Assembly: GCA_947623285.1 (NCBI GenBank)
Contig: CANQGP010000002.1
Span: 64,773 to 128,772, forward strand
Direction: 5' to 3'
Length of the DNA: 64,000 nucleotides
DNA from: an uncultured Clostridia bacterium
GTDB lineage: Bacteria; Bacillota; Clostridia; TANB77; CAG-508
Shown here piece by piece: positions 25,824 to 37,847 of this stretch (position 1 is its first letter; each line of letters starts with the position of its first letter). The notes beneath the pieces are model-generated. The model had not been told where the DNA came from, made no database searches, and saw nothing but the letters and a program-made list of their open reading frames with translations. Both the position numbers and the translations under genes were made by a program.

Positions 25824-25859
25824 GCACCCAACTAGCAATTTTTGATTGTTTAGTGGGGC
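25824..25859 (+). repeat. Copy 1 of the palindromic intergenic repeat family (core cccaa.t.gcaatttttgattg.t.agtgggg)
   Basis: gcacccaactagcaatttttgattgtttagtggggc is similar to the cores at 32613-32665 and 37795-37847. Confidence 0.5.
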
Positions 25860-25892
25860 TTTTTCAAAGACAACAAGGGCTTTTATACGCTT

Positions 25893-28283
25893 TTACACTT
25901 TCATTGATAATCCGACTTTTTGCCTTTCTAGGTCTATTTTTATTACTTTTACTTTTACGATGTCTCCGACTGAGACTACTTCTGATGGGTTTTTGATATA
26001 TTTATCACTCATTTCTGAGATGTGTACTAGTCCATCGTGTTTTACCCCGATGTCGACGAATGCTCCGAAGTCGATTACGTTACGTACGGTTCCGGTTAGT
26101 ATCATTCCTTCTTTTAGGTCTTCTATTTTTAATACGTCTTGACGTAAGATTGGTTTTGGCATGTCTTCACGTGGGTCTCTTCCTGGTTTTATTAGTTCTT
26201 GGATTATGTCTGTTAGGGTCATCTCCCCTATTTCTAATTCTTTTGCTGTTTTTGCTACATCGATTGTTTTTAGTTTTGCACGTAAGTCGGTTAGTTTTTC
26301 TTTGTTTTTTAGGTCTTCTTTGCTGTAACCTATTTGTTTTAGTAATTTTTCTGTTTGTTTGTAGCTTTCTGGGTGGACTGCTGTTATGTCTAATGGGTTT
26401 TTACCGTCCATTATTCTTAAGAATCCTGCGCATTGTTCGTAGGCTACTTTTCCTAGTTTTGGCACTTTTAGTAGTTCTTTTCTTTCTTTTAGTTTTCCGT
26501 TTTCGTCTCTATATTTTACTATGTTTTTTGCGATTGTTTTGTTTATTCCTGATACATATCCTAATAGTGATGGTGTTGCTGTGTTGACGTCTACACCTAC
26601 TTTGTTTACGCTGTCTTCTACTACTCCTGTTAGGCTTTCGGCTAATTTTTTCTGGTTTACGTCGTGTTGGTATTGACCGACTCCGATTGCTTTTGGGTCT
26701 ATTTTTACTAGTTCTGCTAGTGGGTCTTGGAGTCTTCTTGCGATTGAGATTGCTCCTCTTATTGATACGTTAATGTCTGGGTATTCTTCGGTTGCTAATT
26801 TTGATGCTGAGTAGACTGATGCTCCCGCTTCGCTTACGATTACATAGTGTACTTGTCTTGGTGATTCTTTTAGCATTTCTGATACGAATTGTTCTGATTC
26901 GCGTGAGGCTGTGCCGTTTCCGATTGCTACCATGTCTATTTTGTCTTTTTCAATTAGTTTTAATAATTCTTTTTTTGCATTTTCGGTGTCGTTTTGTGGA
27001 GCTGTTGGATAGACTGTTGTTGTGTCTAAGACTTTGCCTGTTTCGTCGATTACTGCTATTTTACAGCCGGTTCTATATGCTGGGTCGAAGCCCATTACTG
27101 TTTTTCCTTTGATTGGAGCTCCTAGTAGTAGTTGTTTTGAGTTTTTGCCAAATACCTTGATTGCTTGTTCTTCGGCTTTTTCGGTTAGGTCAGAGCGTAT
27201 TTCTCTTTCTATTGATGGCTCTATTAACCTTTTATAGCTGTCTAGTATTGTGTCTTTTAGCATTTGGGTAAATTGTGTTTCTTGTGGTTTTTCATATGTT
27301 TTTGGCTTTTGTACTGGTTTTTGTATTAATGTTTTTAGGTCTGTTAAGCTTTTCATTGGGCCTGTTTTTTGTTCCGTTTGATTTTGTTCTGCTTGTGTTT
27401 TGTTGTTTTGGTTTTCTTTTCTTGGTCCTGTGATTACATCTCGTTCTATATATGTTAGTAGTTTTTCTTCTGGTTTTTCTATTTTTACTTTTAAGAATTT
27501 TTCTTTTTCTCCTCTATTTATTGCTAGTATTCTATGGCTTGGGATGAATTTTATTTTTTCACTATAGTTGTAGTACATTTCGTAGTTTGATTTTTCTTCT
27601 TCGTTGGTTGCTGTGGTTTGTATTGTTGCTTCTCTATAGCATTGTCTTTTTATTTCTTTTCTGTATTTTGCGTTGTCTGAGATGTCTTCTGCTATGATGT
27701 CTAGGGCTCCTTGTATTGCTTCTTCTGCTGTTGCTACGACTTTGTCTTTGTTTTTTCTTTCTTCTTCTGTTAGTTTGTCTATGTTTATATATTCTTTGGC
27801 TATTTCTTTTATGTCTTTTGTTTCAGTTTGTTCCCATATTATTTTTGCTAGAGGTTCTAGCCCTTTTGCTTTTGCGACTGTTGCTCTTGTTTTTTTCTTT
27901 TGTTTGTATGGTCTATAGATGTCTTCTACTTCTGCTAGGGTTTGTGCTATTGCTACGGCTTTTAGGATTTCGTCTGTTAGTTTGCCTTGTTCGTCGATTG
28001 AGTTTATTATTTCTTGTTTTCTTGTTTCTAAGTTTCTTAGGTATGTTAGTCTTTCTCCTAGGGTTCTTAGAGTTTCGTCGCTTAGACCTCCTGTTACTTC
28101 TTTTCTATATCTTGCGATGAAGGGGATTGTGTTTCCTTCGTCGATTAGTTTTATTGTGTTTTCTACTTGCCCTGTTTTTACTCCTAGTTCTAGGGCTATT
28201 GTGTTTGCTATTTTTGTTATATTTTCTTGAGTTGTTGTTTCTTCTTTTGTTTGTGTTTTTGATTGTGGCTGTAGTTTTTCCAT
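25893..28283 (-). CDS. tex: Tex-family transcription accessory protein (YqgF/RNase H-like, HhH, S1 domains)
   Basis: 796 aa. The C-terminal S1 domain reads GMILTGTVRNVIDFGAFVDIGVKHDGLVHISEMS. The central YqgF/HhH regions are present. There is a low-complexity insertion near residues 290-340. Confidence 0.85.
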   Translation of the reverse strand: MEKLQPQSKTQTKEETTTQENITKIANTIALELGVKTGQVENTIKLIDEGNTIPFIARYRKEVTGGLSDETLRTLGERLTYLRNLETRKQEIINSIDEQGKLTDEILKAVAIAQTLAEVEDIYRPYKQKKKTRATVAKAKGLEPLAKIIWEQTETKDIKEIAKEYINIDKLTEEERKNKDKVVATAEEAIQGALDIIAEDISDNAKYRKEIKRQCYREATIQTTATNEEEKSNYEMYYNYSEKIKFIPSHRILAINRGEKEKFLKVKIEKPEEKLLTYIERDVITGPRKENQNNKTQAEQNQTEQKTGPMKSLTDLKTLIQKPVQKPKTYEKPQETQFTQMLKDTILDSYKRLIEPSIEREIRSDLTEKAEEQAIKVFGKNSKQLLLGAPIKGKTVMGFDPAYRTGCKIAVIDETGKVLDTTTVYPTAPQNDTENAKKELLKLIEKDKIDMVAIGNGTASRESEQFVSEMLKESPRQVHYVIVSEAGASVYSASKLATEEYPDINVSIRGAISIARRLQDPLAELVKIDPKAIGVGQYQHDVNQKKLAESLTGVVEDSVNKVGVDVNTATPSLLGYVSGINKTIAKNIVKYRDENGKLKERKELLKVPKLGKVAYEQCAGFLRIMDGKNPLDITAVHPESYKQTEKLLKQIGYSKEDLKNKEKLTDLRAKLKTIDVAKTAKELEIGEMTLTDIIQELIKPGRDPREDMPKPILRQDVLKIEDLKEGMILTGTVRNVIDFGAFVDIGVKHDGLVHISEMSDKYIKNPSEVVSVGDIVKVKVIKIDLERQKVGLSMKV

Positions 28284-36423: not shown

Positions 36424-37794
36424 ATTAAGAAATTTTGAAAAAAATAAATTTTTGAATTATTATTTTAAGTTTTTTGAAAAAATAGTTTTTGAGAAGATTA
36501 AATATTTTTCTGCCTAACTTTTATGGTTAGGCAGTTTTTATTATTGATTTTTTGCTTTTTTGTTTCTAACTTTTATTATTTATTTTTTAAGCTTTTGTTT
36601 TTTGTTTATCTTTTTTATATAGTAATTTATTTTAATTATCTTTTTGTTTATCTAATATATTTTTATTTTTTATTTTTTAAAAATTATTTTTTTGTTTTTA
36701 TTTTTATATTTTTTTATTTAATTGTTTTTTTGTTTGTTAAATAATATTTTTATAAATAATATTTTTAAATTTTTAAATAATTTCTTAAGTGCAATTACAT
36801 AAATATCATTTTTGCAAGCATAATTACTTGCAAATTCATTTCAATTAAGTGTACATAATTTTTAAGATGAAAAGTTTTTCTCTTTTTATTAAATTTTCTC
36901 TAATTTCAATTATTTTTTTGGTTTACACTTTTTTGCATTTTTTAATTTCTTTTGAAATTTTTGTTACTTTTTTTCATTTTTAAGAAAATTTTATTTTGAG
37001 ATTTTTTTCAGTTCTTCTACGCATTATTGGAGAATATGACTTTGATTTTTTAAATTTTATACAAGTAAACATAAATGTGGTTTTTCTTTGAATGTTACAT
37101 AATATCAAAATAATAAATGAATTTTTTCTTTGATTTGCTCTCTTGTGATATGTAAACTACTGATTGTTTTTTGTAGTTACTCATATAAGTGCGTTTTTGA
37201 ATGTTGAGCTGATACGTTAATTTTTTAAATGTGTCCATAAAATTTACTTTTTTTTCGTCTTTTTATTTTTACTTTTTTGATTTTTTGAAATTTTCAAACT
37301 TTAAACCCTTACGCATGAGTGACTTTTTTTTGTTTGATGCTTTTTTTATAATTTTCTTGTTTGATTTTTTTCGAATTTTTGTGCGTATTACATAAAATTG
37401 TTCGATTTCTTTGTTCTGGTTGTAGTTTTATGATTAAAAATCTCTTTGAAATTTTATGATTTTGAGATTGAATTTTTAGATTTTTAACTTTCTTAATTAT
37501 TGTTTTCTGTTTTTTTACTTTTTTTATTTTTATTTTTTAAAATTTTTATTATTTTTTAATTTTATTTTTTTATATTATTTTTTTATTATTAAATTTTTTA
37601 TCTTTTTTGTTTTTATTTTTTATTATTTCTTTATTTTTTATTTTTATTTTAATCTCTTATAGTTTTTTTATTTCTTTATTTTTTATTTTCTGTTTTTATT
37701 TAGATTTTTCGTTTTTTTATTTTTTTCTTATTTTAATTTTTCTATATAAATTATTGTAAGATTATATTTAAGAAATAAATATAATTTTTATAAT
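36424..37794. other. 1.4-kb non-coding, extremely T-rich low-complexity tract
   Basis: No ORF longer than 75 aa on either strand. Long runs of ttttatttttt-type sequence. It is bounded on the right by repeat copy 3. Confidence 0.6.
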
Positions 37795-37847
37795 AAGAAC
37801 CTGGCTCACTTAGCAATCAAAAATTGCATTGGGTACCCCAGAACCTT
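37795..37847 (-). repeat. Copy 3 of the palindromic intergenic repeat (inverted orientation)
   Basis: aagaacctggctcacttagcaatcaaaaattgcattgggtaccccagaacctt. Confidence 0.7.

What the first reader, a model, noticed from the sequence alone, without database searches (positions are those of the whole stretch)
25824..37847. Family of about 53-bp palindromic repeats; two inverted copies flank a 5.1-kb segment (FabG-like, VanW-like, 1.4-kb T-rich non-coding tract) bordered by tRNA genes
Copies at 32613-32665 and 37795-37847 are about 89% identical in inverted orientation. Each has flanking GGTTCT direct repeats around a 12-bp hairpin. A related core is at 25824-25859. All three sit immediately next to rho-independent terminators or tRNA genes. 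Such an arrangement fits a MITE/REP-like intergenic element family. It also fits recombination sites delimiting an invertible or acquired segment. It also fits a structured small RNA transcribed after terminators. The enclosed segment ends with an unusual 1.4-kb non-coding T-rich tract (36424-37794) of unknown function.
Basis: seen in the sequence. Interest (0 to 1): 0.55.

Follow-up and report, generated by a model that had tools for sequence, protein, structure and literature searches.

The report
Small hairpin repeat parked behind transcription terminators
A roughly 70-base hairpin-containing repeat, found only in this uncultured gut Clostridia species, sits at eight places directly behind a transcription terminator and is decaying like junk DNA, so it is most likely a small parasitic mobile element and not a switch that flips the 5-kb segment.

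Summary
The repeat unit is about 68-80 nt: ATTGTCAAAGAYAACAAGGTTCT, a bulged hairpin, then GGTTCTTAT. I found eight sites in about 81 kb. Six are in the window: A, B', C, plus new D, E and H. Two lie just left of it: F, and G with the hairpin deleted. One strain carries two tandem copies at site A.

At every site the 5' end abuts the T-tract of a strong intrinsic terminator.

- No Rfam family matches.
- No copy occurs in 29 related genome loci or in the public collections scanned.
- No transposase or recombinase is nearby.
- Between strains the copies diverge as fast as, or faster than, non-coding DNA.
- Covariation is inconclusive.

Best reading: a species-specific, non-autonomous REP/MITE-like element that inserts at terminator T-tracts.

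The invertible or acquired segment reading is not supported. All assemblies show one orientation. The segment's strand bias matches its flanks. CBM53-VanW is native to the clade.

The 1.4-kb T-rich tract has no ORFs, evolves fast and looks like unconstrained DNA. This genome shows extreme strand bias, which switches between gyrB and gyrA rather than at dnaA. That bias is the most surprising thing in the window.

The parts
32589..32668 (+). Copy A, intact. It reads ATTGTTAAAGATAACAAGG(ACAACAAGG)TTCTGGGG, then the hairpin ACCCACTGCAAT-CTCTG-ATTGCTTAGTGGGT, then CAGGTTCTTATT. It starts at the last T of the tRNA-Glu terminator.
   Evidence: RNA fold -24 kcal/mol, z -2.3; CM 85 bits. Strain L001 has two tandem copies here.
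37791..37862 (-). Copy B', nearly intact. The outer stem has 3 mismatches. It starts at the T-tract of the tRNA-Thr terminator.
   Evidence: 83 bits. Strain L001 has two further G-to-A changes.
25798..25869 (+). Copy C. The flanks are decayed but a hairpin is kept. It is followed at 25861-25879 by the 5' part of a second, truncated copy. It lies behind the terminator of ORF 24511-25665.
   Evidence: 57 bits.
22087..22164 (-). Copy D, decayed but with a 9-bp hairpin retained. It lies behind the terminator of ORF 22349-22972 (-).
   Evidence: E 4e-6; 68 bits.
33450..33523 (-). Copy E, decayed. It lies behind the terminator of the CBM53-domain gene (33665-34135, -) and faces the 3' end of FabG.
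   Evidence: E 3e-11; 71 bits. It is 95% identical between strains.
30762..30833 (-). Copy H, strongly decayed. It lies behind the bidirectional terminator 30837-30859, downstream of the CapA-like gene.
   Evidence: 30 bits, E 0.002-0.014. This is the weakest member.
32546..32588 (+). Intrinsic terminator of tRNA-Glu (A-tract, 18-bp stem, T-tract). Copy A abuts it.
   Evidence: -22.2 kcal/mol, z -8.7.
37861..37900 (-). Intrinsic terminator of the tRNA-Lys/tRNA-Thr unit. Copy B' abuts it.
   Evidence: -15.9 kcal/mol, z -5.2.
25772..25803 (+). Bidirectional terminator. Copy C abuts it.
   Evidence: z -4.6.
22164..22209 (-). Terminator. Copy D abuts it.
   Evidence: z -7.3.
33524..33552 (-). Terminator of the CBM53-domain gene. 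Copy E abuts it.
   Evidence: -19.1 kcal/mol, z -6.9.
32466..32540 (+). tRNA-Glu(UUC), left border of the segment.
37905..38101 (-). tRNA-Thr(UGU) and tRNA-Lys(UUU), right border of the segment.
   Evidence: One strain (L003) has an extra tRNA-Glu between them.
36424..37790 (.). T-rich non-coding tract, not part of the repeat. It has no ORF above 73 aa and is 46-77% T on the + strand. Its length varies between strains.
   Evidence: 97.6% identity plus indels, against 99.0-99.7% in the neighbouring genes.

Best explanation
The repeats are copies of a short (about 68 nt), non-coding, non-autonomous mobile element private to this species. The element has a fixed polarity. Its 5' end (ATTGTCAAAGAYAACAAGGTTCT) is always joined to the last T of an intrinsic terminator. 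Then comes a bulged hairpin, then GGTTCTTAT.

I infer that insertion is directed to a hairpin followed by a T-tract. Most likely the terminator is recognised as a DNA structure by an enzyme encoded elsewhere in the genome. The element's own 3' end (hairpin plus GGTTCTT) imitates that target, which would explain the tandem copies.

After insertion the copies are not maintained. They decay under the genome's strong strand-specific mutation bias, and the hairpin can be lost by slippage.

Pairs of copies in inverted orientation, such as A and B', are a by-product of insertion on either side of bidirectional terminators. They are not a working inversion switch.

Shown: the family, its polarity, its position at terminators, its restriction to the species, the tandem polymorphism and the fast divergence. 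Inferred: mobility, target recognition and the type of enzyme.
For: Number of sites. Eight sites lie in about 81 kb.

Position. At all eight the 5' end touches the T-tract of an A-tract/hairpin/T-tract terminator. The seven flanking terminators I folded score z -4.5 to -8.7; H's terminator was called by the scan only. The terminators themselves are unrelated in sequence, except those of F and G. So the repeat was added next to pre-existing terminators.

Copy-number variation. Strain L001 has two tandem copies at site A. The second has its own variant 5' part, so it is not a simple slippage duplicate. Site C is followed by a truncated second copy.

Deletion derivative. G is an element whose 32 hairpin positions are cleanly deleted between GGGTA direct repeats.

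Block insertion. In L101 the block [G -> LRR gene, ORF <- F] is flanked by a 39-nt direct duplication of the Yip1-gene terminator with 2 mismatches. The left copy terminates no gene. This looks like a target duplication or an att pair.

Species restriction. There is no copy in 80 loci of related genomes by HMM or in 29 by covariance model. The core pattern gave none in genome contigs, only 4 chance hits in JGI metagenomes, and a second, flank-plus-core pattern gave none in viral contigs.

No sign of function. No Rfam match. Between strains, genes are 99.0-99.7% identical, the non-coding tract 97.6%, B' 96.2% and E 95%.

Decay pattern. Changes in minus-strand copies are mostly G to A. Changes in plus-strand copy C are mostly C to T. 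Both follow the strand bias.

Clade context. A related species (L013) has its own unrelated small palindromic repeat, so such families are common in this clade.
Against: No transposase, reverse transcriptase or recombinase is encoded in the window or the flanks read.

No clean empty site was found in any strain.

There are no terminal inverted repeats. The flanking 5-mers (TTATT-like) match only 3-5 of 5 in a T/A-rich context, so a target duplication is not demonstrated.

Only about 81 kb of one genome could be read, and all copies lie within 42 kb of it. The genome-wide copy number is therefore unknown.

The model-fitted alignment shows some compensatory pairs: 7 pairs, reached by 3 of 500 shuffles. 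That could mean the hairpin is under selection.

Placement behind terminators could partly reflect survival in the only harmless positions of a compact genome.
Confidence: 0.55

Rival explanations
1. The copies are recombination substrates. Inverted pairs (A/B', D/C, H/A) allow the flanked gene blocks to invert, either as a regulated switch or as occasional homologous recombination. This has reshaped the region.
For: A and B' are inverted and flank 5.1 kb. D(-)/C(+) flank the response-regulator block, and H(-)/A(+) flank the CapA-like gene. Relative to related species, the response-regulator, ABC-F, CapA, CBM53/VanW and TraG-DnaB2 blocks each appear flipped in place, while Tex, the histidine kinase and the 2537-aa gene are not. 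All six window copies lie at such breakpoints.
Against: Every assembly that spans a junction shows the same orientation (L001, L002 and L004 span both), and a Logan contig runs straight through B'. No recombinase is nearby. Third-codon-position strand bias in FabG, CBM53 and VanW has the same sign and size as in flanking genes, so the segment has been in this orientation for a long time. E and B' flank CBM53-VanW in direct, not inverted, orientation. One breakpoint (Tex | tRNA-Lys-ABC-F) has no copy. Any block boundary must fall in an intergenic terminator region, and 6 of about 10 of those here carry a copy. The arms share only 53-66 nt at 86-89% identity, which is poor for homologous recombination.
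Confidence: 0.12
2. It is a functional cis-acting RNA element at 3' ends. A long hairpin is transcribed by read-through of the terminator and acts as a back-up terminator or as a block to 3' exonucleases.
For: It always has the same orientation as the upstream transcription unit. On the sense strand the GGUUCU repeats pair through G-U, extending the hairpin to about 21 bp. The antisense strand cannot do this. C and D keep a hairpin with changed sequence. There is weak covariation on the fitted alignment.
Against: It lies behind strong terminators, so little read-through is expected. The hairpin is not followed by a proper U-tract. There is no covariation on the unfitted alignment. B', E and H have lost much of the pairing, and copies diverge faster than junk DNA. 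G has lost the hairpin altogether. It is absent from related species with the same genes.
Confidence: 0.12
3. It is a multi-copy small RNA gene read on the opposite strand. The order would be a 5' hairpin, a C/U-rich single-stranded linker (CCCCAGAACCUUGUUGUCUUUGACAAU), and then the bidirectional terminator used as its own terminator.
For: All flanking terminators have an A-tract, so they can terminate in both directions. The hexamer just upstream in that orientation has A at position 2 and T at position 6 in five copies: TATAAT for B', TAGAAT for A. This comes from reading.
Against: There are no convincing -35 or extended -10 elements, and -10-like hexamers are expected in this AT-rich DNA. 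The promoter scan gave 85 hits against 60 expected. The supposed terminators differ at every copy, so the 'gene' would not have been duplicated as a unit. No Rfam match. Decay is fast.
Confidence: 0.06
4. It is a protein-binding site for chromosome organisation, such as a parS-, Ter- or operator-like palindrome, near the dnaA region.
For: It is an imperfect palindrome, and copies cluster within about 60 kb of dnaA and of the strand-bias switch.
Against: The orientations are mixed. The sequence is not conserved in related species. Copies decay freely. One copy lacks the palindrome. No copy lies on the other side of the switch.
Confidence: 0.04

Closest known systems
REP / REPIN sequences (repetitive extragenic palindromes mobilised by RAYT transposases)
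   Same: Both are short imperfect palindromes in extragenic DNA at the 3' ends of genes. Both are species-specific families that occur singly, in inverted pairs and in clusters, with a mix of intact and decayed copies (reviews PMC3337134, PMC3184786).
   Different: There is no GTAG/GTGG head, although a related MAG, L013, has a GTAG-headed repeat of its own. The long asymmetric 5' arm gives a fixed polarity. Every copy is joined to a terminator T-tract. No RAYT gene was seen. Copy number is unknown.
Bacterial MITEs (e.g. bcr1 of the Bacillus cereus group, RUP, Correia elements)
   Same: All are small non-coding interspersed repeats that can fold, sit in intergenic DNA and vary in presence or copy number between strains. 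From memory, bcr1 is flanked by a T/A pentanucleotide duplication. Here TTATT-like 5-mers flank the unit.
   Different: There are no terminal inverted repeats matching an IS. The target duplication is not demonstrable. At 68 nt it is at the small end of the size range. It is strictly associated with terminators.
Group IIC introns
   Same: The target rule is the same. IIC introns are typically located just downstream of terminator motifs, an inverted repeat followed by T's, in a fixed orientation (PMC1702495).
   Different: This is not an intron. It is 68 nt and has no ribozyme domains, no reverse transcriptase and no Rfam group II hit at E up to 5.
IS91-family (rolling-circle, HUH Y2) ends
   Same: IS91-family elements make no target duplication. 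They insert next to GTTC/CTTG and have a subterminal palindrome next to a GTTC cleavage site (PMC13181058). This element has GTTC on both sides of its palindrome, and CAAG-GTTC at the 5' side.
   Different: The resemblance rests on a tetranucleotide. No IS91-like transposase was seen. The conserved repeat (AGGTTCT) is longer than the tetranucleotide. The family is mainly known from Proteobacteria. This is a lead only.
Integron attC sites / gene cassettes
   Same: Both give a gene, then an imperfect palindromic site, repeated along a stretch of DNA, with rearranged gene blocks.
   Different: There is no integrase and no R''/R' core sites (GTTRRRY is not met). The genes are in both orientations. 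The site follows a terminator.

Membership tests
REP/REPIN | Short imperfect palindrome in extragenic DNA, many copies per genome | tested here: inconclusive
   The palindrome and the extragenic position are met. Eight sites lie in about 81 kb, but the rest of the genome could not be read.
REP/REPIN | Conserved GTAG/GTGG tetranucleotide at the 5' foot of the palindrome | tested here: not met
   The foot reads GGGGTACCCAC, with no GTAG or GTGG head.
REP/REPIN | Cognate RAYT (Y1 transposase) gene flanked by REPs | not testable with these tools
   There is none in the window or flanks. The remaining genome is not available.
MITE | Terminal inverted repeats shared with a parent IS | tested here: not met
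   The 5' end ATTGTCAAAG... and the reverse complement of the 3' end (AATAAGAACC...) are unrelated. Only the internal hairpin is inverted.
MITE | Target-site duplication flanking each copy | tested here: inconclusive
   The flanking 5-mers match 5/5 (A, C), 4/5 (B', D, E, G) and 3/5 (F). They are all T/A-rich and may be part of the unit. A 39-nt terminator duplication flanks the G...F block.
MITE | Presence/absence or copy-number polymorphism between strains | tested here: met
   Site A has one copy in the window and two in strain L001/L005. No empty site was found.
Structured non-coding RNA (Rfam family or new) | Match to a curated covariance model | tested here: not met
   Only tRNAs were found at gathering score. 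Nothing overlaps any copy at E up to 5.
Structured non-coding RNA (Rfam family or new) | Base pairs supported by compensatory changes beyond controls | tested here: inconclusive
   MAFFT alignment: 1 pair, no better than shuffles. Model-fitted alignment: 7 pairs, 3 of 500 shuffles. That alignment has few sequences and is biased toward the structure.
Invertible DNA segment (site-specific inversion switch) | Inverted repeats flanking the segment | tested here: met
   A and B' are 86-89% identical in inverted orientation.
Invertible DNA segment (site-specific inversion switch) | Adjacent or enclosed invertase/recombinase gene | tested here: not met
   The genes in and around the segment are SDR/FabG-like, CBM53, VanW, CapA-like, DUF1858 and phospholipase C-like.
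Invertible DNA segment (site-specific inversion switch) | Both orientations present in populations | tested here: not met
   Every spanning assembly, from several samples, is collinear with the window across whichever of the two junctions it reaches; L001, L002 and L004 cross both. Minor variants in reads could not be examined.
Group IIC intron | Insertion just downstream of a terminator motif | tested here: met
   8 of 8 sites. The rule is taken from PMC1702495.
Group IIC intron | Ribozyme domains I-VI and an intron-encoded reverse transcriptase | tested here: not met
   The unit is 68 nt. There is no group II hit in Rfam and no RT gene.
IS91-family derivative | Y2 HUH transposase able to act on the ends | not testable with these tools
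   None in the DNA read. The genome is not available.

The most novel reading that the evidence does not exclude
The element is the end of a previously undescribed mobilisation system that recognises intrinsic terminators as DNA hairpins and cuts at the T-tract on both strands. Pairs of elements would then carry gene blocks as cassettes. The LRR block flanked by a duplicated 39-nt terminator would be one example, and FabG between A and E another. Such a system would have produced the in-place block flips seen in this lineage, perhaps in a genome adjusting gene orientation to an unusual replication polarity.
Probability: 0.1. Interest if true: 0.75.

Novelty: new member of a known kind. Interest (0 to 1): 0.35.

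Why it matters
Small palindromic repeats are common, and this one mainly adds a family from an uncultured gut Clostridia lineage.

Its one unusual trait is that the 5' end is joined to a terminator T-tract at 8 of 8 sites. That would be of interest to people who study target choice of mobile elements, because until now it is a rule known for group IIC introns.

The practical value is negative. The A/B' pair should not be annotated as an inversion switch. The T-rich tract should not be treated as a special feature.

The strand bias seen in passing could matter more for understanding replication and mutation in this lineage.

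Tried and rejected
Searches that found nothing useful:
- Core pattern ACCCAN{2,4}GCAATNNNTGATTGNTNAGTG in genome contigs gave 0 hits.
- The same pattern in JGI metagenomes gave 4 hits, all unrelated chance matches in GC-richer contigs.
- A flank-plus-core pattern in viral contigs gave 0 hits.
- Rfam at gathering score and at E up to 5 gave nothing on any copy.

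Reaching more of the genome:
- The look-up of encoding contigs gained about 8.6 kb on the left (two new copies) and about 8 kb on the right (none).
- One look-up failed and several contigs were short.

T-rich tract as a decayed gene:
- tblastn with all ORFs of 27 related loci gave only noise.
- Six-frame translation is full of stops.

Ideas rejected:
- A short ORF starting at the TTG after the T-tract (MLKITRTTRFWGTHCNL in A). It has no ribosome-binding site, its frame is not conserved after the hairpin, and it is broken in D.
- A promoter inside the element. No -10 lies at the right spacing.
- Group II intron domain V likeness (5-bp upper helix plus 2-nt 3' bulge). The AGC triad and GNRA loop are absent, and Rfam gives no hit.
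- parS, dif or Ter sites. The sequence is unlike them, orientations are mixed and there is no conservation.
- Integron attC. Core sites are not met and there is no integrase.

Rearrangement history: relatives are too distant (Tex 80% identity) and too many events separate them to reconstruct a unique inversion history from synteny.

Full report
**What is in the sequence**

Copy A (32613-32665, + strand) and the reverse complement of 37795-37847 (copy B') differ at 6 of 53 positions. They form the longest inverted repeat of the window: 66 nt, 86% complementary, arms 5109 nt apart. The third, looser copy at 25824-25859 (C) is confirmed by a profile search. The bordering genes are tRNA-Glu (32466-32540, +), tRNA-Thr (37905-37981, -) and tRNA-Lys (38026-38101, -).

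**The family is larger and the unit longer than reported**

A profile built from the copies found more members:
- D at 22087-22164 (-) and E at 33450-33523 (-).
- H, a strongly decayed copy at 30762-30833 (-), added by a covariance model (30 bits).
- F, an intact copy at L101 7247-7319 (-), and G at L101 4194-4234 (+). These came from walking about 8.6 kb to the left of the window on a metagenome contig of the same organism. In G exactly the 32 hairpin positions are missing, between GGGTA direct repeats.
- About 8 kb to the right of the window holds no copy.

The conserved unit is ATTGTCAAAGAYAACAAGGTTCT-GGGGTACCCACT(T)GCAAT-CTYTG-ATTGC(WT)AAGTGGGT-(C)AGGTTCTTAY. It is 68 nt long, or 80 nt in A because of a 9-nt internal duplication. 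Only the centre is palindromic. The asymmetric arms give each copy a definite direction.

**The striking regularity is position**

At all eight sites the 5' end of the unit touches the last T of an intrinsic terminator, read in the same direction as the unit. The upstream units are tRNA-Glu (A), tRNA-Thr (B'), ORF 24511-25665 (C), ORF 22349-22972 (D), the CBM53 gene (E), the CapA-like gene (H) and the Yip1-like gene (F). G follows an orphan terminator.

The seven flanking terminators that I folded are strong A-tract/hairpin/T-tract structures, -13 to -22 kcal/mol with z -4.5 to -8.7. Except for those of F and G, they are unrelated in sequence. So the repeat was added next to existing terminators rather than copied together with them. 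In the 16-kb core region about 6 of 10 good terminators carry a copy.

**Signs of mobility**

- A strain 98-99% identical to the window (L001/L005) has two tandem copies at site A, with period 68. The second has its own variant of the 5' arm (GTTATGAACAACAAGG), so it is not a simple slippage duplicate.
- Site C is followed by the 5' arm of a truncated second copy.
- The element's own 3' end, a hairpin followed by GGTTCTT, looks like its target, a hairpin followed by T's. That would explain tandem insertion. This is inference.
- Short Logan contigs break inside copy A, as expected for a multi-copy or heterogeneous sequence.
- In L101 the block [G -> LRR-protein gene, 149-aa ORF <- F] is bracketed by a 39-nt direct duplication of the Yip1-gene terminator with 2 mismatches. 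The left copy terminates no gene. This is what a target duplication or an att pair would look like.

**Signs against a maintained function**

- Rfam has no match on any copy, even at E up to 5.
- The HMM finds no copy in 80 loci from related genomes, and the covariance model finds none in 29 of the closest. The relatives are uncultured gut Clostridia: Lapin-012 bin13 and UMGS1711 at about 80% Tex identity, and Clostridium sp. CAG:780.
- Sequence-pattern scans (the core pattern in the genome and JGI-metagenome collections, a second flank-plus-core pattern in viral contigs) gave nothing but four chance hits.
- Between strains the neighbouring genes are 99.0-99.7% identical, the non-coding tract 97.6%, B' 96.2% and E 95%.
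- Pairing is intact in A and F (-24 kcal/mol), reduced in B', C and D, and nearly gone in E and H.
- On the plain alignment the hairpin shows no covariation beyond shuffles. On the model-fitted alignment there are 7 pairs with changes on both sides, reached by 3 of 500 shuffles. That alignment is biased toward the structure, the sequences are few, and palindromes can acquire symmetric changes by template switching. I call this inconclusive.

**The invertible or acquired segment reading**

- All metagenome assemblies that span the junctions (L001-L005, from several samples) are collinear with the window. A 5.3-kb Logan contig runs straight through B'.
- No recombinase is encoded in or near the segment.
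- The best argument comes from composition. In this genome, third codon positions are extremely biased by strand (see below). FabG (+0.61/-0.62), CBM53 (+0.67/-0.49) and VanW (+0.84/-0.57) have the same polarity and size of bias, expressed on the + strand, as the flanking CapA-like (+0.72/-0.65) and phospholipase-like (+0.50/-0.60) genes. A segment that flips often, or flipped recently, would not show this.
- CBM53 and VanW lie together, a few kb from ABC-F and Tex, in related species, so they are native. FabG has no counterpart in the related loci I fetched and sits exactly between A and E.

One caveat remains. Compared with relatives, this region is heavily rearranged. The response-regulator, ABC-F, CapA, CBM53/VanW and TraG-DnaB2 blocks look flipped in place, while Tex, the histidine kinase and the 2537-aa gene are not. 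All six window copies lie at a breakpoint. Block boundaries have to fall at intergenic terminators anyway. The relatives are too distant to order the events. So I treat a past role in rearrangement as possible but unproven.

**The T-rich tract**

- It has no ORF above 73 aa, and all six frames are full of stops.
- It has no similarity to any protein of 27 related loci.
- It has length polymorphism and the lowest substitution identity among the long stretches of the segment that I compared.
- Its composition is T 46-77%, A 14-40%, with G above C in most 100-nt windows. That is what unconstrained DNA should reach on the + strand here, because all genes between 3.7 and 45 kb are G+T-rich on the + strand at third positions whatever their orientation.
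- The dnaA-rpmH spacer, on the other side of the bias switch, is the mirror image, A/C-rich on the + strand.

I therefore read the tract as decayed, unconstrained DNA and not as part of the repeat system.

**How it most likely works**

This section is inference. I think the element is a non-autonomous insertion element. Its partner enzyme, encoded elsewhere, recognises a terminator as a DNA hairpin followed by T's and joins the element's 5' end to the T-tract. Bidirectional terminators offer this target on both strands. That explains the mixed orientations and the inverted pairs.

Two known systems give precedents:
- Group IIC introns use the same target rule (PMC1702495).
- IS91-family elements make no target duplication, insert next to GTTC/CTTG and carry a subterminal palindrome next to a GTTC cleavage site (PMC13181058). 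The element has GTTC on both sides of its hairpin.

Neither membership can be tested without the enzyme. The intron option fails on size and on ribozyme content. REP membership fails on the GTAG head, and MITE membership fails on terminal inverted repeats. I therefore file the element as a new family of the general kind 'small interspersed palindromic repeats'.

**Seen in passing: strand bias**

The strand bias itself is extraordinary.
- For gyrB, recF, dnaN and dnaA, third-position GC skew on the coding strand is +0.77 to +0.94 and AT skew is -0.73 to -0.93. Almost no codon in these genes ends in A or C.
- yidC, jag, mnmE, gidA, gidB, parA and parB, on the opposite strand, are the reverse.
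- The polarity does not change at dnaA|rpmH, where two perfect DnaA boxes sit at 59275-59295.
- It changes at about 51-53 kb, between gyrB and gyrA, where a 16-22% GC insert with type IV secretion-like genes lies.
- With the usual rule that the leading strand is G+T-rich, that switch looks like a terminus.
- Related species show no such bias.

I could not resolve this without the whole chromosome.

Noticed in passing
window 3700-64000; L097 12000-20693: Extreme strand-specific composition. At third codon positions the + strand is G+T-rich for all genes at 3.7-45 kb: GC3 skew +0.25 to +0.84 for all but the short ORFs 7646-8152 and 38191-38391, AT3 skew -0.25 to -0.84 for all but 7646-8152 and 11640-12101. 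The - strand is G+T-rich for all genes at 53.4-72 kb, reaching about 0.9 in dnaA, dnaN, recF and gyrB (the 44-codon rpmH is an exception on GC skew). This holds whatever the gene orientation. Related species (Tex about 80% identical) lack it.
   Followed up: partly
window 51000-53400 and 59250-59613: The strand-bias polarity switches between gyrB (53387-55348) and gyrA (45108-47558), not at the dnaA|rpmH spacer. That spacer carries two perfect DnaA boxes at 59275-59283 and 59287-59295. Under the usual rule (leading strand G+T-rich) the switch has the sign of a terminus. It lies only 6-8 kb from dnaA.
   Followed up: partly
window 47687-53000: A very low-GC (16-22%) block separates gyrA from gyrB. 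Its genes have TraG P-loop, TraC-like and CagE/VirB4-like hits and a weak ParA-like (CbiA-family) hit. It is probably an integrated conjugative-type element sitting exactly at the bias switch.
   Followed up: partly
L101 4155-4197 and 7326-7366 (about 4.5 and 1.3 kb left of the window): The same 39-nt terminator (AAAAAGCACATATCTGTrTGATTACAGAkTGTGCTTTTT) occurs twice in direct orientation. It brackets [copy G, LRR-protein gene, 149-aa ORF, copy F]. The left copy terminates no gene. This looks like a target duplication or an att pair.
   Followed up: partly
L003 15148-15222 (equivalent to window about 37985): One strain has a second tRNA-Glu gene, 100% identical to the one at 32466-32540. It is inserted between tRNA-Thr and tRNA-Lys on the minus strand, so in that strain the 5-kb segment is also flanked by inverted tRNA-Glu genes.
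   Followed up: no
window 34356-34856 and 34744-36423: The VanW-like gene is split into two ORFs. A Lys/Glu-rich N-terminal ORF with about 39-nt tandem repeats (34438-34630) overlaps, in another frame, the ORF with PG_binding_4, VanW and G5 domains. Every strain whose gene calls cover this stretch shows the split. The related genome L018 has one 592-aa ORF. This could be a frameshift, programmed or disabling.
   Followed up: no
window 22215-22345: Four tandem copies of a 33-nt unit (minus strand: caacaagcgcatagataaaaacatataaaaaat) lie between the stop of ORF 22349-22972 and its terminator.
   Followed up: no
window 21900-45100 versus L013, L015, L018: Gene order is kept, but several blocks are flipped in place relative to related species: response regulator, ABC-F, CapA-like, CBM53/VanW and TraG-DnaB2-DnaI-like. 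tRNA-Lys(CUU) sits next to VanW in L018 but next to ABC-F here.
   Followed up: partly
L013 4033-4723 and 21024-21178: A related MAG has its own unrelated small palindromic repeat, aatGTAGGGGCGATTTTAATCGCCCgc. It has a GTAG head typical of REP sequences and includes a tandem array with 58-nt period.
   Followed up: no
window 49-114 and 1921-1985; L103-L106: A 66-nt direct repeat (95% identical) lies upstream of ORF 211-1044 and at the AbiEi/AbiEii junction. The AbiE toxin-antitoxin pair sits in different contexts in different samples. This left end lacks the strong strand bias, which suggests a recently moved island.
   Followed up: no
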